Source of the DNA: a virus
Reading direction: 5' to 3' (one strand)
Virus record (IMG/VR): IMGVR_UViG_3300030098_006570
Coordinates: 32,001-96,000 of that record
Length of the DNA stretch: 64,000 nucleotides
Below are positions 2,819 through 64,000 of the stretch, one piece after another (the stretch's first letter is position 1; every line of letters starts with the position of its first letter). Under the pieces are notes generated by a model. That model made no database searches. It had not been told where the DNA came from and saw only the letters and a list, made by a program, of their open reading frames with translations. A program made the position numbers and the translations under genes.

Positions 2819-5374
2819 TCAGGCCAGCTCCACGTAAGTAGAGCCGGGATTGAAATATATAACCTTAGGTGTAGTGGTGGCATAGCCAATCACTCGCACA
2901 TAATTATTTGAGGCGGTGGGGGCAACACTTTTGAACTTTGCGCTGGAAGTGGACACATAGACGGCACTGCCGGTCTTGTAGTTTCCGACGAAATAAGTCT
3001 CGGCATCCACAAAACCCCGAATTAGCATACCATCACTTGAGGGGTTGCTTCCCAAGGAAATAGCCAAGAGTTGACTCTCTCCCCCACCGCTCGTGGGACT
3101 GCTTCCCGTTTGGGCAGCCGAGGCGGAAGCCCATCCACCCTGATCGTTAAGATAATAGAGGGCCCCCGTTTGTAGGCCGCTGGCTGAGCTAGTGCCAAAA
3201 TAAACCACTTCGCCGGCACCCGTATTGTTTGGAAGTACCGACGGGGCTTTAGATCCGGTATAATGAACCTCTAAGGCAATTTTTGGTTTTTGGCTTTTAC
3301 CAAAAGAGGCGCCGCCATCTATAAGGGTCACATTGGAGACATAAAGGCCTGAGCCCGAAATATTGGCAGAGGCCGACAAGCTCGCATAAACATCTACATT
3401 GCCGTTAGTATTGACCCGGAGCATCGGGGAGCCACTGTTATCCTGGAAGTCATAGCCAGTGAAGTTGGGCTGAGTACCCTTAAATTGGAGAAGGCCGCCG
3501 GCATTGCGTCCCATCTTATAATGATAAGTTCCTCCACTTCCCACCCGCAACTGATCTCCGGCGGCCGAACCCAGCACACTCAATGCTGCAGCCGAGCTGG
3601 CTGTATTTACCGTGATGGCGCTTGAGGCACTCACATGGGTAACAGTGAGTGCAGCGCCCGAGATAATCCCGTCATGGCCGAGGTAGGCAAGAAGACCGTC
3701 CTCAGCTGCATTAAGGACCGAAATGGAAGCGGTCTTCGCCATAATACCGGTGAAGTTGTTGCCGGCGGGGCCTTTAGTCCGCACCTGCAGGAAACTCCCG
3801 CCGCCTAGGCCGTCGTCGTTATATGTAAAGTCGGCCGATGACGTCAGTTGTCCGTTACCGTCCAGATCGGCGAACACGATGCCACTGCTGGTTAGGCTCG
3901 ACACATAAGCAGTAGAGCCATAAAAAGCAGAGGCCGAAATATTATGAGACGCAGTGAGACTTCCGGAGACAATCGCTAGGCCTTTGCTAACTCCATCGAT
4001 GGTAGAACCAGTGGGATCGAGAATGAAAGACTTGTGTATAACTCCCATGGAGCCGGCCGTTGTAAGCATCGTAACGCCCAACAGGCCTTCGGGATAAATA
4101 TCAATAGCTGTCTTCCCATTATAACTACTGCTCCGGAAATAGGCATAACTGCTCCCTCGGTTGCGCAGATTGATTCCGCCGACGCCCCCAACGTCCGAGC
4201 CATCGAGGATAATTTTACCAGCAGGACTCAAAGTAAAGTCCGCCGAACTACTCAAAATGGACGAGGAGATATAGGTGGGATAACTCCTCGACGCGTTGGA
4301 TCCCAACTTAACAAAGGGAAGCTGGGCGCCTGACATTATCAATTGACCGGATCCTGAAATAGACCCGCTCATCATAACTTTATCGCCCAGGAAGCTGAAA
4401 TTGCCGGAGCCGCTGAAGGCGCCCGCATTGTTAAACTGAATGTTCGTGTTCGAGCCGCCGGGTGTACCGCCGCCTCCCACGTTCTTCAAATACTGGCCGT
4501 CGCCATAAAAAGCAGAGGCTGATACATGGCCAGAAGCGGTGATATGAGAAGAGGCCGAAATAGTGCCGTCATGACCTAGGTATACCAGCAGCCCAGTTTC
4601 AGCAGCATTGAGAACGGAAATAGAAGCGGTCTTCGCCATAATACCTGTAAAGTTATTAGCTCCTGGGCCTTTTGTACGAACCTGTAGGAACTTACCGCCA
4701 CCTATACCATCATCACTGTACGTAAATTCGGCCGAGGAAGTAAGTTTTCCGTTGGGGCCTGCAGCGACGACCCCGCTGCTGGTGAGACTTGACACATAAG
4801 CGTTGGAACCATAAAAAGCAGAGGCCGAAAGATTGGCCGAGGCAGAAACTTGAGTGTTAGCATTCAAGATTATGTTGTCGCCATTGATATCGAGATTAGT
4901 GCCGTTATTTGTAATTTTGTAAGTTTTGGCCGCATCAAAGAAAATAGAATTTCCAGAGGGCACGAACACATTAGATGCTGTAAGATTAGCTGATGCGGAT
5001 AGGGCCCCGCTCACTATCATCTTGGAGCCGGTCCATTTAAGACTATTGGTGCCTCCGAGGGTACCTCCATTATTAAACTGGATATTAGTGGTGGCCCCGG
5101 CGGCAGAACTAGTCGCGATGCCGTGGAGGTATTGACCATCGCCATAGAAAGCTGAAGCCGAGACATGGCCAGATGCTGTGATATTAGAAGAGGCAGAGAT
5201 CTGCCCTAAAACTTGAACCAGCGTATCCGAGGCGGAAACGTTGAGTACTTTAACTCCACCTACACCAAAGGAAATAAAGTCATTTCCCCAGTCTATGTAT
5301 GTATCCTGATTAGGATCGTCCTCGGCGTAAATATCGCCTCTAAATATTCTACCTTTTGCTGAACCGTATGCCAT
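2819..5374 (-). CDS. Tail/head fibre protein with internal repeats (851 aa)
   Basis: Gly/Ser/Thr-rich, with repeated SASAFYG(D/S) and TNIQFNN.G motifs and an internal ~90-aa duplication. Confidence 0.75.
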   Translation of the reverse strand: MAYGSAKGRIFRGDIYAEDDPNQDTYIDWGNDFISFGVGGVKVLNVSASDTLVQVLGQISASSNITASGHVSASAFYGDGQYLHGIATSSAAGATTNIQFNNGGTLGGTNSLKWTGSKMIVSGALSASANLTASNVFVPSGNSIFFDAAKTYKITNNGTNLDINGDNIILNANTQVSASANLSASAFYGSNAYVSSLTSSGVVAAGPNGKLTSSAEFTYSDDGIGGGKFLQVRTKGPGANNFTGIMAKTASISVLNAAETGLLVYLGHDGTISASSHITASGHVSASAFYGDGQYLKNVGGGGTPGGSNTNIQFNNAGAFSGSGNFSFLGDKVMMSGSISGSGQLIMSGAQLPFVKLGSNASRSYPTYISSSILSSSADFTLSPAGKIILDGSDVGGVGGINLRNRGSSYAYFRSSSYNGKTAIDIYPEGLLGVTMLTTAGSMGVIHKSFILDPTGSTIDGVSKGLAIVSGSLTASHNISASAFYGSTAYVSSLTSSGIVFADLDGNGQLTSSADFTYNDDGLGGGSFLQVRTKGPAGNNFTGIMAKTASISVLNAAEDGLLAYLGHDGIISGAALTVTHVSASSAITVNTASSAAALSVLGSAAGDQLRVGSGGTYHYKMGRNAGGLLQFKGTQPNFTGYDFQDNSGSPMLRVNTNGNVDVYASLSASANISGSGLYVSNVTLIDGGASFGKSQKPKIALEVHYTGSKAPSVLPNNTGAGEVVYFGTSSASGLQTGALYYLNDQGGWASASAAQTGSSPTSGGGESQLLAISLGSNPSSDGMLIRGFVDAETYFVGNYKTGSAVYVSTSSAKFKSVAPTASNNYVRVIGYATTTPKVIYFNPGSTYVELA
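3660..4835 (-). repeat. Intragenic duplication of about 280 bp (copies at ~4555-4835 and ~3660-3945)
   Basis: FTYSDDGIGGGKFLQVRTKGPGANNFTGIMAKTASISVLNAAETGLLVYLGHDG versus FTYNDDGLGGGSFLQVRTKGPAGNNFTGIMAKTASISVLNAAEDGLLAYLGHDG. DNA differences are largely synonymous. Confidence 0.9.
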
Positions 5375-5392
5375 TGATTATTCTCCGGGTAT

Positions 5393-5403
5393 AATAAATA
5401 GTA
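5393..5403 (-). promoter_or_regulatory. Putative late promoter (TACTATTTATT)
   Basis: CTATTTAT motif about 19 nt upstream of the ATG at 5374, just downstream of a terminator. Confidence 0.65.
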
Positions 5404-5431
5404 TCCAATCTAATCTATGAATGTTTAAAGT

Positions 5432-5511: not shown

Positions 5512-7374
5512 CTAGTAGATGCTCCACTTATCGGAAGCGACATACATCAAGTTGACCGCACCGTCATCGGAGACAATATCCACGGAATCTTCGCCGTCGA
5601 TAGTCTGCGTTCCAGCATGATCAACCACGATCTTGAAGCCACCAAGGCTACTCGGAGCCTTCACGTTAACAACCTGACCAATGGTCGGGCTGGCTGGAAG
5701 GGTCCATGTGCGATTAGCAGTAAGCGTGGTAGTACCATAGTTGAAACCAACCTGGAGAGTACCCGCCGCATCGCCGATGCCCTGGACGTTGGCGACAATG
5801 TCACCAGTCACAGTACCGTAAATGTTAGCAGCCTGAATATCGATCAGGTTGCCCGACTCATCACGAGCAACAAAAATGTCACCAGATGCGGATGCATCAC
5901 CAGTACCGTTCGTCAGGTATACCCACTCGAAATAGTCGGAGTTATCAGCAGCGTAAGGCATGCGGATGGCAGAGCCAGCAGCGTTTGCCTTGCTGCTTGA
6001 ACCGGAGCCGATTGTTACAGTCTTGTCTTTAATCACCAATTCATCGGTGTTGACCGAAGTGATGGTTCCAGCAACGTAGAAGTTACCACTAGCACTCATG
6101 TTTCCGTTGATAGTCAGACCAGCAAAAGTCGGGCTGTCACTGGTACCGAGACCAAGACTCGTACGAGCAGTGGCGCCGCTCTCATAAGCAAAGGCGCCTG
6201 CGCCAGTAGCAACAATGAATTCACCATCAGCAGAAGGAGCGCCGAGAGTGTCAAGATCTTCGAGGACCCCGTCAACAGCAACAGTGACCGAACCACCAAG
6301 GGACACAGCACCCAGAGCAGCCATACCAGCACCCTGTGTGAGAGTGATGGAGCTGTTAGCAAGCTTGGCGTTAGCGATCGAACCAGCGAGGTTATCGTTG
6401 GTGATTGAGTTATCAGGCAAGAAAACGTTACCAGAAACATTCAAGCGCGCGCTCGAACCCACACGGAGTTCTCCGGTAGTGTCCAAATAAAAATTCGAAC
6501 CAGAGATCGACCCCTCCCGAGTAATCGAGGCGGACGCGGCCGTCGAGCCGCCGGACTCATAAAACGACATATCAGTACCCCATACAGTGAAACCCTGGTA
6601 GTCGTCAGCCACATCGTGAGAATGAATCTCAATACCCGCCGAAGCAGAGATAAGCAACGGCGTAGCGTCGGATCCGCCTTGGCCACTGTTCAACATTGCA
6701 TAATACGTATCACCATGGTCGGTCTCGAAGTAACCCAGGGACATGTGGTCAGAAATAACTACATCCTTACCTGCCTTCGAGTTAGAGCCGGAGATGTGAG
6801 CCTCTTTAATGCTCTTGGCCGCACTACCGAGTGAGGTCTGACCGTCAGCATCAGGGATAATATCGGAGCCGACGCCGGGGACGATATTGCCCGCGACAGA
6901 CAGAGCACCAGAGCCCGAAAGGGTGGTGAACTTACCAGCAGCCTGTGAGCTGGCTCCAACAGTAGTTCCATCAATTGCACCACTGTCAACATTAATGTTG
7001 GTGATGGCCTGGCTGTTAGCATCAAGTGCTGCACCAAGCTGATCAGCCTGAAGGCTGTCAATGTATGCTACACCGTCAATGTACAGATCCTTGAACTCAG
7101 CGCCAGAAGCACCAAGGTCAGTGCCAGCATCTGATTGCGGCTTGAGTGCCGTACCGTTGACGACCTGATTAGCGCCCATAAGGACAAGATCGTTGCTGCC
7201 GTTGGAGCTAATCTTTACTGAGCCACCGTCTCCGTTAAAATAGACAACACCGTCGTTGTTAAGAACAACATCGTTGGCTACCTCAACATCAGCCGAGCCA
7301 GAAAGGTCGGCGCCGCCGACTAGTTTAATATCACCTGGGGACTGGAATGTTCCCAATTGAAATTTATATGCCAT
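5512..7374 (-). CDS. Fibre/decoration-type structural protein (620 aa)
   Basis: Gly/Ser/Asp-rich fibre-like repeats and a C-terminal TLPA..G..V.VK...TIDG...GAV.L...W.IY module shared with two upstream genes. Strong AGGAGG SD and its own terminator. Confidence 0.75.
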   Translation of the reverse strand: MAYKFQLGTFQSPGDIKLVGGADLSGSADVEVANDVVLNNDGVVYFNGDGGSVKISSNGSNDLVLMGANQVVNGTALKPQSDAGTDLGASGAEFKDLYIDGVAYIDSLQADQLGAALDANSQAITNINVDSGAIDGTTVGASSQAAGKFTTLSGSGALSVAGNIVPGVGSDIIPDADGQTSLGSAAKSIKEAHISGSNSKAGKDVVISDHMSLGYFETDHGDTYYAMLNSGQGGSDATPLLISASAGIEIHSHDVADDYQGFTVWGTDMSFYESGGSTAASASITREGSISGSNFYLDTTGELRVGSSARLNVSGNVFLPDNSITNDNLAGSIANAKLANSSITLTQGAGMAALGAVSLGGSVTVAVDGVLEDLDTLGAPSADGEFIVATGAGAFAYESGATARTSLGLGTSDSPTFAGLTINGNMSASGNFYVAGTITSVNTDELVIKDKTVTIGSGSSSKANAAGSAIRMPYAADNSDYFEWVYLTNGTGDASASGDIFVARDESGNLIDIQAANIYGTVTGDIVANVQGIGDAAGTLQVGFNYGTTTLTANRTWTLPASPTIGQVVNVKAPSSLGGFKIVVDHAGTQTIDGEDSVDIVSDDGAVNLMYVASDKWSIY

Positions 7375-7532: not shown

Positions 7533-8300
7533 TTAGTAGACGTACCAATTACTACCATCGGTATACATATGAATCGCGCCATAAGGCGATTGAATAGTGA
7601 GACTGGATGTATTATCAATTAGCTGGCTGGCTGATGCTTTAAGGGTGATGGGAGTTGTAGGGTCGGCACTTCCCACTTCGTCCTTTACTACATATGTCTG
7701 ACCTCCCACGCATTTTGTAGCATCAAATAAAATCTCAAGGGATGCCGCTCTTACCCCTAAATAATACTCATTGGCGGCAGCCGTATGATTTGTAGTAATG
7801 GGGGTCCTAGCATGGACCAGTCCAGCTTTGATCTGCATTGCTTTATTTGTAAAATCATAAAGCACCAGAGCGCTTCCCGAGATCCCCCCCGAGCCTGTTT
7901 GAAACTGAAGAGCACCCACGGGGCCCTGGGCGCTGGCGGAGCCTCCTCCCCCACTGGCCGTAATCCCAGTAAGATAGCGACCGTCGCCATAGAAAAAGGC
8001 AGCGGAAATATTATTGCTCGCTGATATAAGACCAGTGTTGTCAAGGAGAACCTTGGTGATTCCCCCATTGAGAATGGAAAGGTTAGCCCCATCAAAAGTG
8101 AGATCAGCCTCACCTCGCAGAGTCTTTCCGGTGGTATTAGTAAAGGTTATTAAACGATTGTCGTCAGGGGTGACGACATATTCGGGAATTTGAGAAGTAG
8201 GGAAGGCGAGTTCGGACCCATCTCCCGAAAAAGTGCCCGTGAGAGCAAGGCTGGCGGAGTGGAGTTGCTTGATTGTTCCTGATAATGCATTGTACGCCAT
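7533..8300 (-). CDS. Short fibre-like structural protein (255 aa)
   Basis: FYGDGRYL and SASAQGPVGALQF motifs, plus the same C-terminal module (VVKDEVG...LID...YGAI..YTDGSNWYVY). Confidence 0.7.
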   Translation of the reverse strand: MAYNALSGTIKQLHSASLALTGTFSGDGSELAFPTSQIPEYVVTPDDNRLITFTNTTGKTLRGEADLTFDGANLSILNGGITKVLLDNTGLISASNNISAAFFYGDGRYLTGITASGGGGSASAQGPVGALQFQTGSGGISGSALVLYDFTNKAMQIKAGLVHARTPITTNHTAAANEYYLGVRAASLEILFDATKCVGGQTYVVKDEVGSADPTTPITLKASASQLIDNTSSLTIQSPYGAIHMYTDGSNWYVY

Positions 8301-8317: not shown

Positions 8318-9073
8318 CTAGATAATCCACCAAGCACTGGTGCCGTCACAAACATAGGTTTCAGATGCATGGTCCGATAAGAGCTTTTGCCACGGGTCTC
8401 CATCGATCGTATCGCCTCCAGAGGCGCTCACCGTTAAATCGGGAGCGGCAGTTCCGGCTTTCACCACCACTACCCGGCCGATTCCGGCGGTTGTAGCTGC
8501 AGGCAACGTGACAGTTGTTGTGGATGCCACGCTCACTACCACAAAATAATCATCAGATGAAATGCTCGTGTCGGTATTGGTGGTACGGTAATTTACCGCC
8601 TGAGATCCACTAACTGTGAGAGCTGCGTACGGATTGGTAACTCCAATTCCCAGTCGCGGCATAGAGGCTGCATCGCCCGGAGGCCCGGAGGATGTAAGAG
8701 TAAATGCATTAGCCGTAACGCCTATTCTTTTAACAGCGAGGCTTCCAGTAAATGTATGCCAGTCTTCATTGGTATCGCCAAATTTAGAATCCCCACTGGA
8801 GGATAAGAAAGTAATGGTATGATTGATAACATCAAAATTACGGGCAACAATATTTCCACTAACTAGAAGATTGCCAGTGAGGATAAGCTGCGATGAGGCA
8901 GTTAGGTATAAGAGTTGCGAAGACCCACTAATACCACTTCCACCAGGGACCGAGGATCCTGAATGGAACTGTAAAGACCCTGTTGGCCCCTGGGCACTAG
9001 CTGTCCCGGGGTGAGAATGACTCCCCCCCGAAGAGCAACTAACATAAGCCCATCCGTTGTATTGTAGCGGCAC
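8318..9073 (-). CDS. Short fibre-like structural protein (251 aa)
   Basis: TASAQGPTGSLQF and SGDSKFGDTNEDWHTFTGS motifs, plus the same C-terminal module (VTLPAA..G..VVVK...TIDG...CDGTSAWWII). GTG start with AAGGAGG SD. Confidence 0.7.
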   Translation of the reverse strand: MPLQYNGWAYVSCSSGGSHSHPGTASAQGPTGSLQFHSGSSVPGGSGISGSSQLLYLTASSQLILTGNLLVSGNIVARNFDVINHTITFLSSSGDSKFGDTNEDWHTFTGSLAVKRIGVTANAFTLTSSGPPGDAASMPRLGIGVTNPYAALTVSGSQAVNYRTTNTDTSISSDDYFVVVSVASTTTVTLPAATTAGIGRVVVVKAGTAAPDLTVSASGGDTIDGDPWQKLLSDHASETYVCDGTSAWWII

Positions 9074-26109: not shown

Positions 26110-26110
26110 T

Positions 26111-26344: not shown

Positions 26345-26352
26345 GACTTCTC

Positions 26353-27790: not shown

Positions 27791-29032
27791 TTAGATATCT
27801 AACTTAAGTTTGAAAGTAAAATCCCGTTGAGCGGTCTTCTTCACCGGGGTCGCAGGCTTCGCAATAGCGATAAGGTTTTGGTTCTTATCATAAATGCCAA
27901 TCTTGGAGATATAAGTAGTTTTCTCAAATGACCCAGTAGGATCATTATACGCGGAGCTAACCACATTTTTAATGCCTCGCTGGGGATTTTCCACATAGCC
28001 TTGAGGACTGAGAGAAAACTGGCTTCCGGATCCGGCATCCACAAAAGATGGATTATTAGAGTGATTGAGTTCTCCCTTCGGTGCAGTAGCAAAAAGGGTC
28101 ATGTTTTGAATCTTGCTTGTCCCGCTCATATGAAGTAAAAAGGCGCTGTTAGGAGCCCGGCTGCCGCTAGCTCCAACGGTTCCCTCAATAGACTGGGCAA
28201 AGTATCTCCAACGAGGACGATCTCCTCCCGTAACGTATAAATCTGTGAAAAGAGCGCTCTTGAGGGCGACCGAGCTGGTGAGTACAATAAACCCTTCATT
28301 GTACAAGACAAAACCAATAGCGCTTCCGCTAGCTGGAGATCCAGTATAGTTGTCGTAGAGCACGCCATCCCGATTAGTATCCTGGGCGCGGGCAAAAAGC
28401 GATCCGGTCCAATAATATTGAAGGTTAACGGAGCCGGGCTTGATCTGTGAGCCATAAAAGATTGAGGGAACACTAATGAGGCCGGTTGCTGTGTCATTGA
28501 GATCGCGGCGGAGCACAGAAGAAGAGTAAGCAATATAGGGGCTTACATAGGTATAATAATCTATAGTGTTTTTAAGCGCATGAAGATGAGAGACCGACCC
28601 ACTAGAGACAACGCCCTCCGGATATGTGACGCTGCTAGCTGTGAGAGCCGGGGTCACGTAACGGGGTGTCGTAGCCGTGTAATATTCTTTGGTAATCGAT
28701 GAGGTCTCAGGATAGGATCCCGAAATAATGTCGCCCACCTGGTAGTTACTCGCGTAATTTGCATTGGTGGTGGTACGAAACCCTATTCGAGTCCCGTCTT
28801 TGATAACGAATGGTGTGATGAGACCAGTTTTGGTAACGTCCCTATCAATGTTCATCTCAAACAAAGATATATGGCCCGGTGTGGTCATACGAATAGACCC
28901 AGTAAACGAACCAGAGATATTAGGAGTATTGTTAAAAGATGAAGTAAGGTTGTAAACGAAAAGTTTTACTTCCGGATACGTCTTTATCGTATTGATGTAA
29001 ACATCATTACTCGCAAACTTGTACAGTGGCAT
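27791..29032 (-). CDS. Baseplate/tail structural protein (413 aa)
   Basis: C-terminal TYISKIGIYD...LIAIAK.A.PVKK...FTFKLKLDI module, paralogous to the adjacent gene. Confidence 0.7.
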   Translation of the reverse strand: MPLYKFASNDVYINTIKTYPEVKLFVYNLTSSFNNTPNISGSFTGSIRMTTPGHISLFEMNIDRDVTKTGLITPFVIKDGTRIGFRTTTNANYASNYQVGDIISGSYPETSSITKEYYTATTPRYVTPALTASSVTYPEGVVSSGSVSHLHALKNTIDYYTYVSPYIAYSSSVLRRDLNDTATGLISVPSIFYGSQIKPGSVNLQYYWTGSLFARAQDTNRDGVLYDNYTGSPASGSAIGFVLYNEGFIVLTSSVALKSALFTDLYVTGGDRPRWRYFAQSIEGTVGASGSRAPNSAFLLHMSGTSKIQNMTLFATAPKGELNHSNNPSFVDAGSGSQFSLSPQGYVENPQRGIKNVVSSAYNDPTGSFEKTTYISKIGIYDKNQNLIAIAKPATPVKKTAQRDFTFKLKLDI

Positions 29033-47900: not shown

Positions 47901-48770
47901 ATTCAGGTTCCCGTCGACATAGAACCGGCTTTGGAGGCCTGTCGAACTTGATTTGAAAGTAAATCCATAATGGTGCCATGCGTCGTCGACGACAGACGCG
48001 CTAGTAAAGGTCGAGGCACCCATACTTAGATCATAAACCCCAGTAGTACCCGACAAGAGGGTCACTCGGAAAGGATTGATGCCCGAGGTGGCGCCCGTAA
48101 GCTCAATGCGCAGGCGACCATAGCCGGCCGAGGATGAGGGTGCGCCGTTCCATAAATCAAAAATTACTTCTTTGCGCGTGAGACCGGTTAGGAATTCTTT
48201 CTTTTTGAGCCAGAACTCTACACTGACTCCGTTGCCGGCAATATCATATTTTAGATTGCTCTCGCGGTTTTTATCCGGCTCATAATAATTGGAGCCAGTA
48301 AATCTAGTCGCATAAGGAGTAAGGCCGTTAGGGTTTCCGTGAGGGCCGCCGTAAAAGTGAATGTACTCGGGAGAGGACGATGAGCCATACCCATCAATTA
48401 TGTTTCCAGTGCCCCATCCGTTAGCCGAGAAAATAATATATCCATTTGTCCGCGGATAAAGGTTGTCGTAGATATAAAGATCAATATCTAATGATTCATT
48501 TTCCCACTCTAGACGCTCTCGGCGTGAGCCGTCATAGGGGAAGCTCTGATAAATACGCTTCAGCGCGCTGTCATAATACTCGGCTGCTAAGCCATAACGA
48601 GCAAAGTTTTCCGGCTTTGAAAAATCAACCCGCGGAATAAAGCGCCGCTCTTTGATAATATCTTCGCGATGGTATCCGACAGACTCAACGACGCCACCGA
48701 TTTCCTTACCAGTGAGCCCTGAGACTGAGTTTACTTGCTCCGCAATTTTGAAATAATTCTTGAGCGACAT
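38961..48770 (-). CDS. Giant baseplate wedge protein with LamG/concanavalin-like domains (3269 aa)
   Basis: LamG-type motifs (VEFWLK, WHHYGFT...FYVDG...IGA...G.LDEFRYW; WNHVVV...FNGYMCDVAV) and a wedge motif NNLSYIYKTKGTEKSFRNLIRCFG. Confidence 0.75.
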   Translation of the reverse strand: MSLKNYFKIAEQVNSVSGLTGKEIGGVVESVGYHREDIIKERRFIPRVDFSKPENFARYGLAAEYYDSALKRIYQSFPYDGSRRERLEWENESLDIDLYIYDNLYPRTNGYIIFSANGWGTGNIIDGYGSSSSPEYIHFYGGPHGNPNGLTPYATRFTGSNYYEPDKNRESNLKYDIAGNGVSVEFWLKKKEFLTGLTRKEVIFDLWNGAPSSSAGYGRLRIELTGATSGINPFRVTLLSGTTGVYDLSMGASTFTSASVVDDAWHHYGFTFKSSSTGLQSRFYVDGNLNNEIVTGSGFQEVTGALQAYIGALITSPSGSSAVGGYGKLSGSLDEFRYWKTQRSSQGIGRYWFTQVGGGVNDDPEPFIDTPEDVNTLLGVYYKFNEGITGRTATDSTVLDYAGRVTNGTWTGYTANSRNTGSAIVISQAAIKEYKDPIIYNFHPAVVALSSSLEISGSDYDAGNNANIYNSLPQWIREEDEEGQQNAKYLLQIMSSYFDDLQLKTRALTSLRDVQYPSGTQKPLPYAERLLNSHGFVAPDIFLDADVLEKLADRSEFRVYEKTLFDVKNTIYQNIYNNLSYIYKTKGTEKSFRNLIRCFGIDDEIVKINLYANDVEAEMRSNRKNVSVPDKFANFNTGENGSATIFQYQNPIDTVNTVGYISGSQNLRNGYAFTLETDVYFPEKIDVASPGYQDTNIISSSLFGVHGNAGISETAPRWPSYTGQADVVNFQVYAVRDERNSSNVKFMLTGTSGVTTVVPRLQSALYEDVYDNTQWNLAVRVRPDSYPYTNVAGVTPTDYVVELHGIQIDSGVVLNEFTLTGSLASPGAGREYAFVTGSKRVFIGAHRTNYTGSVLERSDVKINACRYWLNYLDDTTLAAHAYDTQNAGTLNPHFYAYPFNASASFGEIPEFETLMLNWEFSQNTGSNAAGQFTVTDEASGSNAVATANNGWIGRMLNEQYAGLGFGFAASSTTAIDKDYVISARQTLPENIYSTEMVKVFNQAEQEVFTIDSRPINYYFAFEKSLYQNISEEILNYFATLKDLNTLIGAPVNRYRHEYKGLKFLRQKFFATVANTEIDFDKFYEFYKWFDSALTVMLQQLVPASTDFATNVRTMIESHVLERSKYQSKFPFLEDKTNPLFGSTWGTGNDGTAMNSPDSFPAGTGLSANTAYFRRQIGSSNPIRTKEWSFIHAPPSKNQKDKAYWWKTEASRTENPTLKGATSATTNNVRQDLLRAIEKSRNIAADSPVRFGTEGSVTVGGVGFHPNKRTNFVMDATAPAGRLVPGTNLPVNIMLSFQDDVEQLIDTNDIYYPTLKQRLGFGINPDINRGAPLGNKSSTKNKMDGNILAPFSLYSSSVKSGFNQDVINLYHSGVTITNLHHDIVHTNDIPLQGPFTEKYVGGWQYRHQDINVQKASNPGKNNLDSRDTRAEGWMLKLGLCEAAVSQGSGALGIVGPQYPDATSASGSAPRGYLLNRPKANLAREEYAKRPVNIRNIKMTTGSTIIGNYEKNYQVVQTAGRELNDPFFNDQSFNFAPYPETLATRGRFPLFVPLSPSPPTSLKFYAADDTRLDAGSQDNWSTAFADVATTGFTIAFWYYNTVDPSNNKRLFQIGTIQSGIFSSQGISIYLYVNGGVNTIYADVKDAAPKTSYARSSGVSDYTWNHVVVRVPEGAIDSSAGETISICINGVESTAAAGTDAVDWTTVSFDSGAQIGDSAQFANPFNGYMCDVAVMTGLPTLAGVSAMYNSGTRPDLASVSLGGSATLINWWKLGLDYAGQPPAGGIFVDQVGGSFFEAVPTNFGSTPDEEGVKEVSPPIVNALRPEPAALYNNTANPGGALNYLLPSRTGSNSQHTVFVNRFAGSGYEVMSLGYMDPAHEALSVYNALPYHNLSLLDYGLSGSASVDPLAEKTITVIDQIDKNRGLDQRATLHCGQFGHDAAYGSVPASTYVTIPSWHKTNRNPRKRIVSASGGYITGTVYDNLYVQHQIPRSTQQYSWITASLAFGSTIFGLESPSCTTANSLTQLVSGASYSESGVPYTSSFTALNLVVKDSLNTRTHTAGSSSVQRLVNIPRAKATNALNLARNGAYGYPSWKQIRVGESPMARALRKANKIGTVLPPPKVPKMSYVYSGSTLVRSGLRGYVEGLKPTQFVDYVERPVASSARPVYFAFQDNTENSDPRNNISLKVSYANNLGYFTNEGLNNRLNLGKPVDDHQPLKTITDFTRNSGLSVVANYKQRVYPADINAYSRVVRMRPNYSIKNIWNNIRSVRSSEGGLTGSMGYATASQSIWPIDGHNNYASTSSVLGINDGAGELQANYTRYVADPAAEYLGTDNTRRPGPIYSTPIYLGSASATAGSRPVIAGDAPFTAYRQAGLVPYYEATAYAEELRASAKDYSLLPEFRISDHMSTYIEKKEGDFLASIDDIFSLTGAEIPNSSGQDFYKVYSNSDFMKYFSVIDEDLQEQRSGDLTITRDKISLSCKAFLKLLPYKGFFPIERTLELATLFSQSVQKTILQASSVLGAQKMVSSIPYEMMFSPGILYNTIKSGIGVSHFCVVNGQDGKLVDPMLSGNAAAAAGYAGRSRVILPEGTLVMQDCAVVNAAQTGLNRGYVINRVPFETLYKPETFFSPTSLGSLSGAAPQYPFVYSTAPSQSVSLAAANSWIYAQSGTPKQMSVDMTTFQADRLYSLAIDNFLCAASDIFVDKFSSFVSAREDSFGVAKSGSVYTMRVKLARSQLGAASFGTSGDPTDPAYGTFDMYRRQSAFGQPIVGVSGSGGATPSYMHVTPPYMGGYAEAELVYTASYDGRPALADIFGGLSINYMRQENSASQTYVTASGYAAPYGISSKGGAGYTLAQYGPPSPGIMHLDACYNFTEALGEIVSGTVDQKFRWLIQSKFETPILNVQSASTPGGWNPAPPASYPLHRGPFTSDGADTVLTHGLWHQYGRVPSADKEGVFLSLAEAESAARAAGRGIGAADAPLSLAKLVGFPVTSRRVGTVKREFRWEEAVVAVPFEIIQNNRRFISMDKYKNSHAYRNLKAMMSKYNFPPRFDFTKFSTVDPILMYVFEFGTDMSQQDIANIWQNLLPEIGSKFTTSEVIVEERELLDLLLGEATDLRWMVFKVKKRVAIDFERNRRALETSNTASMPVYIDEKYSYNWPYDYCSLVELAQIEQDVQWASRDVQSTGTATIMYNPEAPTTPTISAAPMPASMIGSIPNTTPQASVTPEPQALEIERRRPVDTAPRFSVDGDRAPRKSSKRKTRRRTTGKKKR

Positions 48771-48777
48771 GTATTAA

Positions 48778-50343
48778 TTATTCTTCAACTCGAAATTTGA
48801 ACGTTTGGGGCTGTTCAATCCAACTCCCTATACTATCATTATAATATGCTAATTTAATACCATACATGTAGCCAGGGTCCAGAAGTCCCATGTCCAGATC
48901 AAAGTAGTTCCCACTTACATCATATGAAAGATGTGTACAATTATAATCATTGCTTCCTGTGCCGAAAGAGATTACCGTCAGATCATCCACAACTCGGTAG
49001 ATGGAGTAAGACGCACTATTGATAATTTCTGTAGGATTGTTTGCCGTGGCCTTTACATAGATCGTGGGATTCCAATACTTGTTTCTTACAAACGTTCGGA
49101 AGCGCGCTGTTTCGTTCACGCTATAGCTTTTACGCAAATTCCGTATGTTGGTGTTATAATTCAAAGTAGGGGCACTACCATATTTAGGCATCGCGCTAGG
49201 GTAGATGGAACCGGTGAAGAATTCGACCCCATCACTACGGCGCCACACATCATTAATTCCTTCAAAAGGACTCGCGCCGGCCGTCAAGGCAAAACTGCAT
49301 GAATAAATTCCCGTACTAATATAGCTGGCTGTGGCATTCGTGCTTAGTGCCGTCGTAACACCCCCTCCTAAGGGCAGCCGTATCGCGGAGCCCGTCGGTG
49401 CGCCAGTGGCAGAACTGGAATAGAAAGAGGCAGTCAAATTGGCAGCATTTCCTGTGGTGCCAATCCCCGGCAGGTTGACCAGGCGTCCCCGTACGTAATT
49501 ATAAAGATAGATGGAGTTAAGATTATCCGACGCAGGAGCAAAGGAACTTGAAAAATAAAATTGTCCGCGCTGGTCTTTAACGGTGGAGTCCCATCGAGCT
49601 TCAATAACAGGGCGCTTGAAGAAGAACTCCGTTGAACGAGCGAAGAATTTCTTGGTGTAGTAGGTCTGTGTAGCGCCGCCGAGGTTTTGTACCACGCCCG
49701 CTGCTGAGCTAGCAGATGCATAGGCTTCTTCGCTGGACGTGAGAAAAATCCCCACTCCATAGTTGTTGATTCCACCGCCGCCCGGGGTCGCGATCCACTG
49801 TTCAACAAGGCCACTAATATCTAATTCTATATCTTCCCATCCCAAGGGAAAAGTTACTTTATACCTATTACCCGCAGGGTCGGCGCTGGCGGTGGCATAA
49901 TCTCCACCCATATTGGTCCACGCGGTGGTGGTACTCGCCGACATCCAGTTGGATTTTCCAAGATCTTGATAATTATCCATATCAAGTCCCGTACCCTCGA
50001 CCCACTGAGTAGTGATGGGTACAACCTCTAGGGTATACCCTTGCGGCAGGGTCCATGGAGTTTCGGCATTGTACATTCGCAAGAAGAATGAGACTGATCC
50101 CGAAGTCGGCAGCGTACCTGCGCTGCGGGCGGCACTAATCTGGGCGACCGGAAATTGAATTATGGCACGGGACAGTTCTTGGGTGGCGCCGGCTGTCGAA
50201 GATGATAACTGCCCATAAATAGAAAAGATTTCTACAGAATCAGCATACCCCATGTTCGAGCCCGTACCTCGTTGGGTGAGGTTCGACTCCAATGCGTTCG
50301 TGATGGTGTTATCAAGACTAGCTGTGTATCTCAGAATGGCCAT
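48778..50343 (-). CDS. Baseplate-associated structural protein (DNRLRE-like N-terminal domain)
   Basis: DNTI...SNMG...SRAIIQF...W.EG.G...W...GGD...LDISGLVEQW pattern. Follows gp6. Confidence 0.6.
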   Translation of the reverse strand: MAILRYTASLDNTITNALESNLTQRGTGSNMGYADSVEIFSIYGQLSSSTAGATQELSRAIIQFPVAQISAARSAGTLPTSGSVSFFLRMYNAETPWTLPQGYTLEVVPITTQWVEGTGLDMDNYQDLGKSNWMSASTTTAWTNMGGDYATASADPAGNRYKVTFPLGWEDIELDISGLVEQWIATPGGGGINNYGVGIFLTSSEEAYASASSAAGVVQNLGGATQTYYTKKFFARSTEFFFKRPVIEARWDSTVKDQRGQFYFSSSFAPASDNLNSIYLYNYVRGRLVNLPGIGTTGNAANLTASFYSSSATGAPTGSAIRLPLGGGVTTALSTNATASYISTGIYSCSFALTAGASPFEGINDVWRRSDGVEFFTGSIYPSAMPKYGSAPTLNYNTNIRNLRKSYSVNETARFRTFVRNKYWNPTIYVKATANNPTEIINSASYSIYRVVDDLTVISFGTGSNDYNCTHLSYDVSGNYFDLDMGLLDPGYMYGIKLAYYNDSIGSWIEQPQTFKFRVEE

Positions 50344-62057: not shown

Positions 62058-62059
62058 CT

Positions 62060-62499: not shown

Positions 62500-62540
62500 T
62501 TTATTATTTTCCTTTCTATGAATAATATTTTGTTTATATT

Positions 62541-62582
62541 ACAGTATATTATAAACTGTTCTCACACACTCATTAAGTAGTG
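62541..62582 (-). promoter_or_regulatory. Promoter region: TATAAT -10 inside an ACAGT/ACTGT inverted repeat, plus a late-type CTACTTAAT motif
   Basis: TATAAT at 62548-62553 (minus), flanking inverted repeat at 62541-62559, CACTACTTAAT at 62572-62582. Confidence 0.45.
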
Positions 62583-63271
62583 GCATGAAATTCTTTATAG
62601 AGGGCCTCCCCTACTCTAAATTGCCACTCATAGTCAATATCAAAGCTTTCCAATTCATTTATAACTACTAGTTCCAAATTGGGAGGTGCGGCAGTATCCA
62701 TCCAATAGCCCTCCCCTATAATATCTATACGACTTCCATAGAGACAATGAGCGGCCTCATAGACCGCATCAACATCCTTAGTGTCCATCCAGCTCCGTCC
62801 TTTCCAGTCAGTGAGGTGGTTTTTGTTTTGATCCCAGTAATAGGTTTTCTTTTCGGTCACGGCAAACGCTCCCTCATTCTCTGAGTGAATAAAAGACTCA
62901 ATAAAGGTATCGATGGTAGAAACCTCCAGAAGAGGATTGCAGCCGCTCACCATAATCACATATTTATATTGAGGGGGGAGTTTATCGTGCCATTCGAAAA
63001 TGGTGGCTAAGCGCTTTTCTTCTAAGGCTGACTCTTGAGACCTCTCGAAGATATTAATTTGATGACGGCGACCGATCTCTTTGATCGGTTCATCATAGGC
63101 GGAAAGAAAAATGTTTTCCCGCGGCAGAGACGTCAGTTTTTGTAGTTTACTAAAGAGAACATCGAGCAAGGTAGAACCAGCAAATGGGCGCACCATCTTG
63201 TTGGGCACACGCTTGGAAGCCAAGCGCGATTGTACCATGAGAGCGATCTCGCTTCTATCTTTCGGCATCAC
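62573..63271 (-). CDS. Acylneuraminate/nonulosonate cytidylyltransferase (NeuA/PseF-like)
   Basis: QSRLASKRVPNK..RPFAG..LL, GCNPLL, and ESFDIDYEWQF motifs. Confidence 0.88.
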   Translation of the reverse strand: MMPKDRSEIALMVQSRLASKRVPNKMVRPFAGSTLLDVLFSKLQKLTSLPRENIFLSAYDEPIKEIGRRHQINIFERSQESALEEKRLATIFEWHDKLPPQYKYVIMVSGCNPLLEVSTIDTFIESFIHSENEGAFAVTEKKTYYWDQNKNHLTDWKGRSWMDTKDVDAVYEAAHCLYGSRIDIIGEGYWMDTAAPPNLELVVINELESFDIDYEWQFRVGEALYKEFHATT

Positions 63272-63681
63272 TGCTCTTCTCCCTCAAAAATGTAATATTG
63301 TTTGACGAACCCGCACCCCTCAAATAGACGTACGCTCGCCAGATTAGATATGTGAACAATTGCTTTGAGATCTTTCTTTTTTAGTTCTTGAGAAACATAA
63401 ATGAGCATCTGTTTTCCCAAGCCTTTGCCCCGGGAGCCCTCGACCACAGCTATAGAGATATAGCCAGATGCATTGAACCCCACATATCCCACGGGGGCCG
63501 AGTCTTCCAAACAAATATAATACTTATCACCATGCGCTTTCATATAGTTCCGATGTTCTTCGGCAGTAATCTCATGCGAATGCATAGAGTTTTCTCGTGA
63601 CACCTTATCGTTCTTAAGTTTGCGGATGAATGCCCAGTATGAAGGGTTATTTTTAACTATGTGTGCCACGCAATCCTTCAA
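63268..63681 (-). CDS. GNAT N-acetyltransferase (PseH-like)
   Basis: ITAEEH..YM, SRGKGLGK acetyl-CoA motif, NLASVRLFEGCGF. Start codon uncertain. Confidence 0.82.
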   Translation of the reverse strand: MKDCVAHIVKNNPSYWAFIRKLKNDKVSRENSMHSHEITAEEHRNYMKAHGDKYYICLEDSAPVGYVGFNASGYISIAVVEGSRGKGLGKQMLIYVSQELKKKDLKAIVHISNLASVRLFEGCGFVKQYYIFEGEEQ

Positions 63682-64000
63682 TCTGATGGATGGGGGTGGC
63701 CCACCCTTTTTCTAGAAGAGGCCAGTATTTCTCCAAATCGCGTTTATAGTGAAAGGAGCCCACCGATTCATCTTGTTTGGTAGGCGCGATGGCTTGGCTG
63801 CGGATGGCGGGCCAGCTCTCTCTAAATAAGTTTTCCATCTCCACTCGCAGACGCCCATATGTTTTCTCAAGCGTGTCTTCCTCGGGCCCGAAGGTGACCT
63901 CTTTCTGGGCAAGGAGGTCGCCCGTATCGATTCCTTCATCGATGAAGTGAATGGAAACGCCCCGGGGGGTGTTGTCCAAGAAAGACCAAAAATTAGGATG
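63653..64000 (-). CDS. Sugar N-formyltransferase (3' part; runs off the window end)
   Basis: Frame open from the window end: HPNFWSFLDNTPRGVSIHFIDEGIDTGDLLAQ (formyl_trans_N motif). Confidence 0.85.
   Translation of the reverse strand, partial: HPNFWSFLDNTPRGVSIHFIDEGIDTGDLLAQKEVTFGPEEDTLEKTYGRLRVEMENLFRESWPAIRSQAIAPTKQDESVGSFHYKRDLEKYWPLLEKGWATPIHQIEGLRGTHS

What the first reader, a model, noticed from the sequence alone, without database searches (positions are those of the whole stretch)
2819..64000. Extreme [ST]-[GAS]-S tripeptide enrichment in outer virion proteins plus a CMP-nonulosonate pathway: candidate virion O-glycosylation system
Seen (hand counts, approximate): SGS/TGS/SAS/TAS/SSS/TSS occurs about 40 times in the 851-aa fibre, about 16 in 48778..50343, about 15 in 27791..29032 and about 10 in 29041..30138. 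It is also frequent in the 3269-aa protein and the other fibres, often after a hydrophobic residue. It is nearly absent from terminase, portal, Mre11-Rad50 and gp6. It recurs in unrelated folds, not only in fibre repeats. The same genome encodes a formyltransferase, a PseH-like GNAT and a NeuA/PseF-like cytidylyltransferase (62573-64000). Known: pseudaminic and legionaminic acids are O-linked to Ser/Thr of flagellins, and glycosylated virions occur in some mycobacteriophages and giant viruses. Inference: the tripeptide is a sequon selected on exposed virion surfaces for a phage-encoded glycosyltransferase. No glycosyltransferase lies in this window, so the link is unproven.
Basis: partly seen in the sequence, partly recalled or inferred. 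Interest (0 to 1): 0.8.

Follow-up and report, generated by a model that had tools for sequence, protein, structure and literature searches.

The report
Candidate phage virion O-glycosylation sequon
The outer tail, fibre and sheath proteins of this uncultured T4-like phage and its whole clade carry 2-5 times too many copies of a short serine/threonine motif. Every near-complete clade genome checked also carries the same pair of sugar-transferring enzymes next to a changeable sugar-synthesis cassette, so these phages probably coat their particles with sugars, though no experiment has shown this yet.

Summary
[ST][GAS]S occurs 42, 16, 15 and 10 times in the four named proteins, against 11, 3.6, 2.9 and 1.9 expected from composition (z 6-10). 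It is about at expectation in terminase, portal, gp6 and the non-virion genes. The signal acts on the protein: codons are mixed, position 3 must be Ser, and position -1 is hydrophobic and uncharged.

Just beyond the window lies a full nonulosonate cluster: two NeuB, two cytidylyltransferases, and PseB- and PseC-like genes. Next to it are two soluble GT4 glycosyltransferases, and one carries a fused PF01973 (Maf/WaaZ-type) domain.

The enrichment follows the clade, not the nonulosonate genes. It is equally strong in six relatives that keep the GT4 pair and lack NeuB: Flavobacterium phage immuto, Microcystis phage Mel-JY01, Rhodothermus phage RM378 and three near-complete IMG/VR genomes. Genome-wide O/E is 1.6-2.4 in the clade. 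It is 0.8-1.25 in T4, P-SSM7, Melnitz and a NeuB-carrying phage that lacks the GT4 pair.

Best reading (about 0.5): hydrophobic-[ST]-[GA]-S is the acceptor site for clade-wide virion O-glycosylation, primed by the GT4 pair. The neighbouring sugar cassette varies between phages and here makes nonulosonates. All GT4-positive phages belong to one clade, so the link is not phylogenetically independent, and no glycan has been shown.

An earlier scan note on this genome had already listed the sugar cluster.

The parts
2819..5374 (-). 851-aa fibre-like virion protein, the most motif-rich protein in the window. It is partly repetitive (for example SASANLTAS).
   Evidence: 42 [ST][GAS]S against 10.8 expected, z 10.5. 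The C-terminal 150 aa resemble an annotated tail fibre protein of phage immuto. No PHROG match.
5512..7374 (-). 620-aa virion-module protein, weakly enriched.
   Evidence: 10 against 5.0, z 2.3. No PHROG match.
7533..8300 (-). 255-aa protein with a baseplate-like C-terminal domain, enriched.
   Evidence: 8 against 1.6, z 5.7. phrog_20556 baseplate protein, E 1.8e-7.
8318..9073 (-). 251-aa neighbour of the previous protein with a C-terminal domain at the same position (residues 159-251; the two match different PHROGs), enriched.
   Evidence: 10 against 3.3, z 3.9. phrog_37034.
9092..9526 (-). 144-aa small virion-module protein, mildly enriched.
   Evidence: 4 against 1.3, z 2.6.
27791..29032 (-). 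413-aa distal tail protein with no known fold. It is the founding member of a family of at least 981 metagenomic homologues.
   Evidence: 15 against 2.9, z 7.3. Across 150 family representatives O/E is 5.08. The motif fills 5 conserved columns, and a further 349 copies are scattered over 159 rarely used columns. AF2 model pLDDT 77; 36 of 45 motif residues lie in coil, often just after a strand. No PDB fold match.
29041..30138 (-). 365-aa paralogue of the 413-aa protein, sharing its C-terminal domain.
   Evidence: 10 against 1.9, z 6.4. Paralogy and homologues in RM378, Mel-JY01 and immuto.
37978..38958 (-). 326-aa tail-module protein, enriched.
   Evidence: 5 against 0.7, z 4.9.
38961..48770 (-). 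3269-aa giant tail or baseplate-periphery protein, enriched along its whole length in non-repetitive contexts.
   Evidence: 43 against 13.2, z 8.9. The equivalent giant proteins are enriched in G001 (4246 aa, z 12.8), G003 and G005.
48778..50343 (-). 521-aa protein encoded directly after the gp6 baseplate wedge gene, enriched.
   Evidence: 16 against 3.6, z 7.2. The adjacent gp6 (50343-52139, phrog_6/219) has 0 motifs.
62573..63271 (-). CMP-ulosonate cytidylyltransferase (PseF/KdsB-like), the first gene of the sugar cluster.
   Evidence: PF02348 E 3.5e-12. NCBIfam KdsB and PseF models match below their cut-offs.
63268..63681 (-). GNAT N-acetyltransferase, in a PseH-like position.
   Evidence: PF00583 E 1.4e-11.
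63653..64000 (-). C-terminal part of a 193-aa formyltransferase. The gene runs to window-equivalent 64234. The rest of the cluster and the glycosyltransferases lie beyond the window at genome 96245-107696 (L006:2245-13696).
   Evidence: PF00551 E 6.4e-19. Downstream genes.

Best explanation
Hydrophobic-[ST]-[GA]-S, with Ser required at position 3 and charged residues excluded beside it, is a protein-level motif. It is selected on the outer virion proteins (fibres, distal tail and baseplate-periphery proteins, outer sheath domains) of a deep clade of T4-like phages. The clade includes this marine phage, Flavobacterium phage immuto, Microcystis phage Mel-JY01, Rhodothermus phage RM378 and many IMG/VR genomes.

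The most likely function is an acceptor site for direct cytoplasmic O-glycosylation of folded or folding virion proteins. The priming enzymes would be the clade's conserved pair of soluble GT4 (GT-B) glycosyltransferases. The pair sits next to a sugar-biosynthesis cassette that differs from phage to phage and would decide what the glycan is made of.

In this phage the cassette makes CMP-activated nonulosonic acid(s): PseB- and PseC-like steps, two NeuB, two cytidylyltransferases, and formyl, acetyl and methyl tailoring. One GT4 has gained a fused PF01973 domain, the fold of Maf flagellin nonulosonate transferases and of the Kdo transferase WaaZ. That domain most likely adds the nonulosonate, probably as a cap on the GT4-installed sugar.

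Shown: the enrichment, its specificity, its conservation, its restriction to virion proteins, the gene content and the co-distribution. Inferred: that the GT4 pair acts on proteins, that the motif is its acceptor, the order of sugar addition, and the biological role (shielding, stability, or adhesion to or recognition by hosts).
For: 1. The enrichment is strong and corrected for composition, and it is confined to about 11 mostly unrelated virion proteins. Codons are mixed.

2. Both end positions need a hydroxyl residue. The classical turn formers are not used: NGS is found 2 times against 4.7 expected, and AGS, GAS and SGT are at or below expectation.

3. The same motif with the same flanks (hydrophobic at -1, depleted charge) recurs in seven other genomes with GC from 33% to about 50%. 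Mel-JY01 lacks the -1 hydrophobic preference.

4. Co-distribution. Eight genomes carrying the 432-aa GT4 (its partner is clear in seven, marginal in RM378) have genome-wide O/E 1.62-2.37. Four genomes without it have 0.82-1.25, including NeuB-positive AG-345-L05. The pair is present in 16 of 18 long relatives and in 4 of 4 that are at least 90% complete.

5. Motif sites are under constraint. Against a 45-90% identical relative, 18 of 26 sites are kept as a motif and 14 of 26 are identical. Only 36 of 144 control small-residue tripeptides are identical (Fisher p 0.005). Kept sites include in-class swaps such as SGS>SAS and SAS>TAS.

6. In the 413-aa family the motif holds 5 conserved columns and also appears 349 times in 159 rarely used columns. 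O/E stays 2.8 after the conserved columns are removed, which points to repeated gain.

7. Motif residues sit mostly in coil or at strand ends (36 of 45). In the sheath, 10 of 11 lie outside the conserved inner C-terminal domain (p 0.06).

8. The enzymes fit the role. The N-terminal domain of the 679-aa protein is a GT-B fold (Z 30.4, rmsd 3.0 over 343 residues to chlorovirus glycosyltransferase 3oy2) with an invariant E-x7-E. The 432-aa GT4 matches PF00534 above its cut-off. No cluster protein has a transmembrane-like segment.

9. Five genomes lack a Bac_transf initiating transferase, a Wzy/PglL ligase and a Wzx flippase. The phage therefore encodes no lipid-linked export route.

10. The C-terminal domain matches PF01973 in 18 of 27 homologues (best E 3.2e-8). 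The ESM Atlas neighbours agree. PF01973 is the catalytic domain of Maf enzymes, which O-glycosylate surface Ser/Thr near hydrophobic residues without a strict sequon (PMC11339370).

11. The cassette next to the conserved pair differs in every genome examined. Conserved transferases beside a variable sugar cassette are the pattern expected of a surface glycan under diversifying selection.
Against: No glycan on any of these virions has been shown. All GT4-positive, enriched phages form one clade (portal identity 32-43%), so the co-distribution is effectively a single evolutionary event. No lineage that lost the pair was found to serve as a natural control.

The GT4 fold does not reveal the acceptor. 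The nearest structures act on small molecules, lipids, glycans, proteins and DNA alike. This protein's own PF01973 match is below the Pfam cut-off (17.7 against 34.6 bits), and the domain could not be folded separately.

The motif is not depleted from non-virion proteins (O/E about 1), so there is no sign that off-target sites are avoided. Its position at strand ends and hairpin turns is equally what a purely structural motif would show. The major capsid protein is only weakly enriched (z 2.6). Exposure could not be measured because no model coordinates were available.
Confidence: 0.5

Rival explanations
1. The motif is structural. It would be a strand-capping or tight-turn element peculiar to the beta-rich tail and fibre folds of this clade, inherited and multiplied with those folds. 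The glycosyltransferases and the sugar cassette would serve something else, for example remodelling host envelope glycans during infection.
For: Motif residues lie mainly at strand ends, hairpins and loops. Hydrophobic residues flank the motif on one or both sides. The enrichment is limited to one clade. Non-virion proteins show no avoidance. Sugar and LPS-type gene clusters in marine T4-like phages have long been read as host-surface auxiliary genes (my own knowledge).
Against: The motif occurs in at least 10 proteins without detectable mutual similarity and at non-homologous, scattered positions. It demands hydroxyl residues at both ends, while the usual turn formers are not enriched (NGS 2 against 4.7). 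The Ser/Thr/Gly/Ala-richest, fibre-like proteins of T4 and Melnitz are at or below expectation (12 against 16.3; 33 against 33.1), and those of P-SSM7 reach only O/E 1.5 (71 against 47.9). The phages encode no initiating transferase, flippase or ligase for envelope glycans.
Confidence: 0.3
2. The motif is the target of a different modification or recognition event on virion proteins, such as phosphorylation, acylation, or binding by an assembly chaperone. It would be unrelated to the sugar genes.
For: The need for hydroxyl residues and the site conservation fit any Ser/Thr-directed modification. An earlier first-reader note on this genome mentions a kinase-like gene among other leader-bearing genes (I did not test it).
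Against: No candidate enzyme with the same clade distribution was identified. The only clade-wide modifying enzymes found here are the two GT4s.
Confidence: 0.08
3. The GT4 pair and the sugar cassette hypermodify the phage DNA, as T4 glucosyltransferases and the enzymes described by Pyle et al. 2024 do. The protein motif would then be coincidental.
For: The GT-B fold is shared with T4 alpha-glucosyltransferase (1y6f, Z 18.7) and with the glycosyltransferase of phage HY126 (Z 19.1). The pair sits beside a PD-(D/E)XK nuclease gene in three genomes. Virus glycosyltransferases that put diverse glycans on DNA are known (cited in PMC12619734).
Against: No ThyA-family hydroxymethylase or ThyX occurs in this record, and no ThyA-family enzyme occurs in four near-complete relatives. 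The usual hydroxymethyl-pyrimidine handle for DNA glycosylation is therefore missing. This rival also leaves the protein motif unexplained.
Confidence: 0.05
4. The enrichment is a by-product of amino-acid composition, low complexity or fibre repeats.
For: The 851-aa fibre is repetitive and rich in Ser and Gly.
Against: z is 5-10 after composition-preserving shuffles. The enrichment persists without the fibre, against a Markov-1 expectation, and across genomes with GC from 33% to about 50%.
Confidence: 0.01

Closest known systems
Maf (motility accessory factor) flagellin nonulosonic-acid O-glycosyltransferases of Campylobacter, Aeromonas, Helicobacter and Clostridium botulinum
   Same: Both have a PF01973 catalytic domain encoded beside CMP-pseudaminic/legionaminic-type synthesis genes. 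Both act in the cytoplasm on surface-exposed Ser/Thr of a protein that later polymerises into an extracellular structure. Glycosites sit next to hydrophobic or small uncharged residues (PMC11339370).
   Different: No flagellin is encoded here, so the presumed acceptors are tail, fibre and sheath proteins. The PF01973 domain is fused behind a complete GT4 domain and does not sit in the three-domain Maf layout. Maf substrates have no defined sequon, whereas a sharp tripeptide is enriched here. The motif is equally enriched in relatives that lack both the PF01973 domain and NeuB, so the Maf-like domain is probably not the priming enzyme.
Virion glycosylation in mycobacteriophages (Freeman et al. 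2023, PMC10527164, as cited in PMC12619734)
   Same: Phage-encoded glycosyltransferases decorate structural proteins of the particle.
   Different: There the glycans sit on the C-termini of the capsid and tail-tube subunits. Here the capsid is barely enriched and the sites are scattered over fibres, distal tail proteins and the outer sheath. The phage lineage, enzymes and sugars all differ, and this case has not been shown experimentally.
Chlorovirus (PBCV-1/NY-2A) capsid glycosylation by virus-encoded cytoplasmic glycosyltransferases
   Same: The closest solved structure to the conserved GT4 domain is chlorovirus glycosyltransferase B736L (3oy2, Z 30.4). In both cases a virus carries its own soluble transferases and uses atypical sequons (my own knowledge for PBCV-1).
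   Different: In PBCV-1 the linkage is to Asn of the major capsid protein. The function of B736L itself is unknown. The host is a eukaryote.
GT4 protein O-glycosyltransferases for serine-rich adhesins (GtfA/GtfB, SdgA/SdgB)
   Same: Both are GT-B/GT4 enzymes, and GtfA/GtfB also work as an adjacent pair. Both put a first sugar on Ser within short Ser-x-Ser or Ser-Asp patterns in the cytoplasm. Structural neighbours include SdgB (Z 19.0) and GtfA (Z 18.2).
   Different: The similarity is no closer than to many non-protein GT4s. Those substrates are long low-complexity repeats, not isolated tripeptides on folded domains.
WaaZ-type Kdo transferases and Cst-II-like sialyltransferases
   Same: The PF01973-type fold uses a CMP-activated ulosonic acid donor and a sugar acceptor. 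ESM Atlas structural neighbours of the C-terminal domain carry PF01973 together with PF27901 WaaZ_KDO_III.
   Different: Those enzymes act on LPS or lipooligosaccharide. Here no lipid-linked pathway is encoded.

Membership tests
Maf flagellin nonulosonate glycosyltransferases (PF01973, Maf_flag10/MptE-like) | PF01973 domain scoring above the Pfam cut-off | tested here: inconclusive
   The protein's own C-terminal 300 aa score E 0.0031 and 17.7 bits against a cut-off of 34.6, while covering profile positions 12-165 of 171. 18 of 27 full-length homologues match at E<=1e-3, best 3.2e-8. ESM Atlas neighbours carry PF01973.
Maf flagellin nonulosonate glycosyltransferases (PF01973, Maf_flag10/MptE-like) | Encoded beside CMP-nonulosonate biosynthesis genes | tested here: met
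   It directly adjoins PseB-like, PseC-like, 2x NeuB and 2x CTP_transf_3 genes. Among four near-complete relatives, only NeuB-positive G003 has the full-length fusion.
Maf flagellin nonulosonate glycosyltransferases (PF01973, Maf_flag10/MptE-like) | Flagellin as the acceptor | tested here: not met
   No Flagellin_N match in this record or in four near-complete relatives. Activity on host flagellin cannot be excluded.
Maf flagellin nonulosonate glycosyltransferases (PF01973, Maf_flag10/MptE-like) | Three-domain Maf layout: degenerate Rossmann N-domain, central PF01973, helical C-domain (PMC11339370) | tested here: not met
   Residues 1-405 form a complete GT4 GT-B domain (Z 30.4), followed by a helical linker and the PF01973-like domain.
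Pseudaminic acid pathway (PseB, C, H, G, I, F) | PseB and PseC equivalogs | tested here: inconclusive
   The best NCBIfam hits are PseB (260 bits, cut-off 408) and PseC (108 bits, cut-off 424). Both are the right families but score below the equivalog cut-offs.
Pseudaminic acid pathway (PseB, C, H, G, I, F) | PseI-type synthase and PseF-type cytidylyltransferase | tested here: inconclusive
   Two PF03102 NeuB proteins score above the Pfam cut-off. Both score higher on the NeuB model than on the PseI model and fall below both equivalog cut-offs. The two cytidylyltransferases fall below the PseF cut-off.
Pseudaminic acid pathway (PseB, C, H, G, I, F) | PseG UDP-sugar hydrolase | tested here: inconclusive
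   None was recognised. Instead there are a PIG-L deacetylase, WbqC, a methyltransferase and a formyltransferase. This suggests a modified or mixed nonulosonate route.
GT4 retaining glycosyltransferases (GT-B fold) | GT-B fold with an E-x7-E motif and a Glycos_transf_1 match | tested here: met
   The 432-aa protein matches PF00534 at 46.3 bits, above the 26.4 cut-off. The N-domain of the 679-aa protein scores Z 30.4 to 3oy2 and has invariant E283 and E291, but its PF00534 score is only 21-23 bits.
Phage DNA glycosyltransferase systems (T4 AGT/BGT type) | A hydroxymethyl-pyrimidine synthesis enzyme (ThyA family) supplying the acceptor base | tested here: not met
   No PF00303 match in this record or in four near-complete relatives, and no PF02511 match in this record.
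Lipid-linked envelope glycan pathways (O-antigen, capsule, OTase-dependent protein glycosylation) | Initiating phosphoglycosyltransferase, Wzx flippase, and Wzy/ligase/PglL | tested here: not met
   PF02397, PF01943 and PF04932 are absent from five genomes. PF00953 was not searched. Host enzymes could substitute.

The most novel reading that the evidence does not exclude
A whole, environmentally abundant clade of aquatic T4-like phages, infecting hosts from three phyla (Bacteroidota, Cyanobacteria and Rhodothermota), uses a defined three-residue O-glycosylation sequon (hydrophobic-[ST]-[GA]-S). A conserved GT4 pair reads it and coats fibres, distal tail proteins and the sheath with a glycan. 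The glycan's composition is swapped between phages by a hypervariable sugar cassette and includes nonulosonic acids in some. This would amount to a phage serotype or glycan-shield system.
Probability: 0.45. Interest if true: 0.85.

Novelty: new variant of a known kind. Interest (0 to 1): 0.72.

Why it matters
Virion glycosylation is documented for only a few phages, namely mycobacteriophages, and no acceptor sequon is known for it. None is known for Maf-type O-glycosylation either.

If this reading is right, three things follow:
- Glycosites on phage particles could be predicted from sequence, through a simple sequon.
- Glycan coats, including sialic-acid-like sugars, would be a core and diversifying trait of a widespread aquatic phage clade. 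That bears on host recognition, particle stability, grazing and aggregation in the sea.
- A compact soluble enzyme pair plus a tripeptide tag could be useful for glyco-engineering.

The idea can be tested now, because three clade members are in culture (immuto, Mel-JY01, RM378).

Tried and rejected
- **DNA-level motif:** rejected. Codons are mixed and no 9-mer recurs.
- **Composition or repeat artefact:** rejected.
- **Avoidance of the motif in non-virion proteins:** not seen. O/E is 0.98-1.11 in this phage. The glycosyltransferase family's own O/E of 0.47 looks family-specific.
- **Near-identical phage records:** none.
- **PDB sequence searches:** the 679-aa protein, its profile and its C-terminal domain returned only generic GT4 hits for the N-domain and nothing for the C-domain.
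- **Whole-model fold searches:** these were filled by GT-B hits, so the C-domain fold was never tested.
- **Fold of the 413-aa protein:** Foldseek found no significant match in the PDB.
- **Natural control:** I looked for clade members lacking the GT4 pair. Only two of 18 long contigs lack it, and both are about 55% complete fragments, so no such control exists yet.
- **Literature:** I found no paper on Mel-JY01 and no prior description of this motif or of virion glycosylation in this clade.
- **Solvent exposure:** it could not be computed, because only DSSP strings are returned, not coordinates.

Full report
**Setting.** The window is bases 32001-96000 of a single 148,084-bp virus record. CheckV rates the record 82% complete and it has linear ends. 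Almost all genes lie on the minus strand. Portal, terminase, sheath, capsid and gp6 homologies place it among distant T4-like phages. Its nearest cultured relatives are Microcystis phage Mel-JY01 and Flavobacterium phage immuto (portal about 40% and 35% identical), followed by Rhodothermus phage RM378.

I called ORFs over the whole genome and counted [ST][GAS]S against 500 composition-preserving shuffles per protein. The hand counts were accurate.

| Protein (window coordinates) | Observed | Expected | z |
|---|---|---|---|
| 851-aa fibre (2819-5374) | 42 | 10.8 | 10.5 |
| 48778-50343 | 16 | 3.6 | 7.2 |
| 27791-29032 | 15 | 2.9 | 7.3 |
| 29041-30138 | 10 | 1.9 | 6.4 |
| 3269-aa protein (38961-48770) | 43 | 13.2 | 8.9 |

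Four further proteins are enriched: 7533-8300, 8318-9073, 37978-38958 and the 956-aa tail sheath just upstream of the window. Terminase, portal, the 1050-aa ATPase, gp6 and the replication and metabolic genes sit at expectation.

Among all 8000 tripeptides, the abundant outliers are exactly TGS, SGS, SAS and TAS (O/E 3.3-5.4). This holds with the repetitive fibre removed. [ST]xT, GxS, AxS and NxS are not enriched. The motif stays 1.9-fold enriched over a first-order Markov expectation that is itself inflated by the motif. Every codon for each residue is used and no 9-mer recurs, so selection acts on the protein. Position -1 is hydrophobic in 74 of 134 cases against 42 expected. Charged residues are depleted on both sides.

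**What lies beyond the window.** The three sugar genes at 62573-64000 begin a run of co-oriented genes on the minus strand:
- cytidylyltransferase, GNAT and formyltransferase;
- NeuB, a second cytidylyltransferase and a second NeuB;
- PIG-L deacetylase, WbqC and a methyltransferase;
- a 314-aa protein of unknown function;
- a DegT aminotransferase whose best hit is PseC;
- a 4,6-dehydratase whose best hit is PseB;
- then a 679-aa and a 432-aa glycosyltransferase.

All pathway enzymes score below NCBIfam equivalog cut-offs. The cluster therefore works like a pseudaminic/legionaminic-type route with extra tailoring, but it cannot be filed as the canonical Pse pathway.

The 432-aa protein is a plain GT4. 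The 679-aa protein was modelled at pLDDT 89. Residues 1-405 form a GT-B domain whose closest solved relative is chlorovirus glycosyltransferase 3oy2 (Z 30.4, rmsd 3.0, 343 residues), and the E-x7-E pair is invariant. The C-terminal 280 residues match PF01973 weakly in this protein (E 0.003) and clearly in 18 of 27 homologues (best E 3.2e-8). ESM Atlas neighbours carry PF01973, some together with the WaaZ Kdo-transferase family. PF01973 is the catalytic domain of Maf flagellin nonulosonate transferases (PMC11339370).

No protein of the cluster has a transmembrane-like segment. An earlier scan note on this genome had listed this cluster and suggested Maf-like domains. My tests support one such domain moderately. 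The second, at the N-terminus of the 314-aa protein, is only faint.

**The decisive comparison.** The GT4 domain of the 679-aa protein and the 432-aa GT4 have adjacent homologues in immuto and Mel-JY01. RM378 carries a clear homologue of the 432-aa GT4 and, next to it, an ORF that matches the other GT4 domain only marginally (E 0.0026). In immuto, Mel-JY01 and this phage the pair lies beside the same PD-(D/E)XK nuclease gene. None of the three relatives has NeuB. Their neighbouring genes differ:
- immuto has WecE-type aminotransferases, a PglB-like acetyltransferase and GT2s;
- Mel-JY01 has extra GT-A enzymes and methyltransferases.

I then ran the same statistic over whole genomes.

| Genome | GT4 pair | NeuB | Genome-wide [ST][GA]S O/E |
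|---|---|---|---|
| This phage | yes | yes | 2.37 |
| G003 (IMG/VR, 92% complete; full GT4-PF01973 fusion) | yes | yes | 1.62 |
| immuto | yes | no | 2.31 |
| G001 (IMG/VR, 100% complete) | yes | no | 2.28 |
| RM378 | 432-aa GT4 yes; partner marginal | no | 2.2 |
| G002 (IMG/VR, 100% complete; GC 33%) | yes | no | 2.14 |
| Mel-JY01 | yes | no | 2.10 |
| G005 (IMG/VR, 90% complete) | yes | no | 1.98 |
| Marine virus AG-345-L05 | no | yes | 1.25 |
| P-SSM7 | no | no | 1.21 |
| Melnitz | no | no | 1.11 |
| T4 | no | no | 0.82 |

Each enriched genome has 3-8 strongly enriched virion proteins. Examples are the immuto tail spike (53 against 12.5, z 12.6) and the G001 4246-aa protein (58 against 12.8). 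The Ser/Thr/Gly/Ala-richest long proteins of T4 (12 against 16.3) and Melnitz (33 against 33.1) show no enrichment, and those of P-SSM7 reach only O/E 1.5 (71 against 47.9).

The enrichment therefore does not depend on nonulosonate genes. It follows the clade, and with it the GT4 pair. The pair is present in 16 of 18 long IMG/VR relatives and in all four that are at least 90% complete. NeuB is present in 8 of 18 and in one of four.

The family of the 679-aa protein is modular in metagenomes. The GT4 domain occurs alone (about 417 aa), fused to PF01973, or fused to a GT2 domain. G001 carries yet another cassette after the pair: a GT2, a TPP enzyme, two DegT aminotransferases, epimerases and a GT10.

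**Signs that the motif itself is selected.**
- Against a 45-90% identical IMG/VR relative (L007), 18 of 26 motif sites remain motifs and 14 are identical. Of 144 other small-residue tripeptides, only 36 are identical (Fisher p 0.005). Several changes stay within the motif class.
- In 150 diverse representatives of the 413-aa family, O/E is 5.1 and 93% of members have z above 2.
- In a rough alignment of that family, five columns hold the motif in at least half of the members. Another 349 motifs lie in 159 columns used by fewer than 10% of sequences. O/E is still 2.8 after the conserved columns are removed. The alignment is very gappy, so the column counts are approximate.
- In the AF2 model of the 413-aa protein (pLDDT 77), 36 of 45 motif residues are in coil against a 60% background. 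Typical positions are just after a strand or in a hairpin.
- In the sheath, 10 of 11 motifs lie outside the conserved C-terminal domain that forms the inner sheath in T4 (p 0.06). The T4 structure is from my own knowledge.

**Weighing the explanations.** The motif needs hydroxyl side chains at both ends and rejects the classical turn formers. It occurs on unrelated outer virion proteins, is conserved, and is repeatedly gained. The one clade that has it also keeps two soluble GT4 enzymes beside a sugar cassette that changes from genome to genome, which is the pattern of a surface glycan under diversifying selection.

The phages encode no initiating phosphoglycosyltransferase, flippase or ligase, no flagellin, and no ThyA-family hydroxymethylase that could provide a DNA acceptor. 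Direct cytoplasmic O-glycosylation of virion proteins is therefore the simplest common explanation. In this model the GT4 pair primes the sites, and in this phage the fused PF01973 domain adds a nonulosonate.

I put this at about 0.5. The co-distribution is confounded by common descent. The GT4 fold does not reveal its acceptor. Non-virion proteins do not avoid the motif. A purely structural strand-cap or turn motif would sit in the same places, and that is the main rival at about 0.3. Nothing here demonstrates a glycan.

**Relation to known systems.** The case works most like Maf-dependent flagellin glycosylation and like the GT4 enzymes that glycosylate serine-rich adhesins. It parallels virion glycosylation in mycobacteriophages and chloroviruses. 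It differs from all of them in acceptor proteins, domain architecture, and the presence of a sharp tripeptide. I found no earlier description of the motif or of virion glycosylation in this clade.

Noticed in passing
L006:10359-13696 (genome 104359-107696); L008:19172-29988 (immuto); L011:23441-29690 (Mel-JY01); L139:1282-14363 (G001): The conserved GT4 pair sits beside a PD-(D/E)XK nuclease gene in this phage, immuto and Mel-JY01. The block of sugar-synthesis and transferase genes that follows it is completely different in each of the four genomes. This looks like a hypervariable glycan island comparable to O-antigen or flagellin glycosylation islands.
   Followed up: partly
L139:10074-12796 (G001): The sugar cassette of relative G001 contains a ketopantoate hydroxymethyltransferase (E 2.9e-94) and an acetolactate-synthase-like TPP enzyme next to DegT aminotransferases. 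That combination suggests a branched-chain or unusually acylated sugar.
   Followed up: no
window 62573-63271 and L006:2245-5095: This phage has two NeuB synthases (340 and 372 aa) and two cytidylyltransferases. It may make two different CMP-ulosonic acids, or one enzyme pair may have diverged.
   Followed up: no
L002:5115-7985 (genome 25115-27985): The tail sheath is unusually long at 956 aa, against about 660-750 aa in T4, P-SSM7 and Melnitz. Only residues from about 618 onward align to other sheaths. The extra N-terminal two-thirds carry 10 of its 11 motifs.
   Followed up: partly
L012:4750-8430 (Mel-JY01): A 1226-aa protein annotated 'methyltransferase FkbM' lies among structural genes and contains a region similar to the GT4 domain of the 679-aa protein (E 4.3e-9). 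It may be a virion-associated or additional glycosylation enzyme.
   Followed up: no
LR756508.1 (484-kb uncultured phage), about 146-149 kb, 305-307 kb and 322-324 kb: A megaphage record carries a portal 42% identical to this phage's, a homologue of the 432-aa GT4 (E 2e-51) and a NeuB. The clade and its glycosylation module may therefore reach into jumbo phages. Its motif statistics were not computed.
   Followed up: no
window 25950-26399 (+): A 149-aa plus-strand ORF with 20% Ser scores as motif-enriched (7 against 2.0). It lies antisense to the small leader-bearing genes on the minus strand, so it is probably not a gene.
   Followed up: no
proteins P0001-P0120 (homologues of the 679-aa glycosyltransferase): The glycosyltransferase family itself holds the motif at less than half the expected rate (32 against 68). 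Other non-virion proteins are at expectation. This may be chance conservation or self-avoidance.
   Followed up: no
L014:9165-11893 (RM378): RM378 gene p013 ('glycosyltransferase') and the adjacent hypothetical p014 look like distant counterparts of the GT4 pair (E 3.5e-36 and 0.0026). RM378 shows a genome-wide motif O/E of 2.2.
   Followed up: partly
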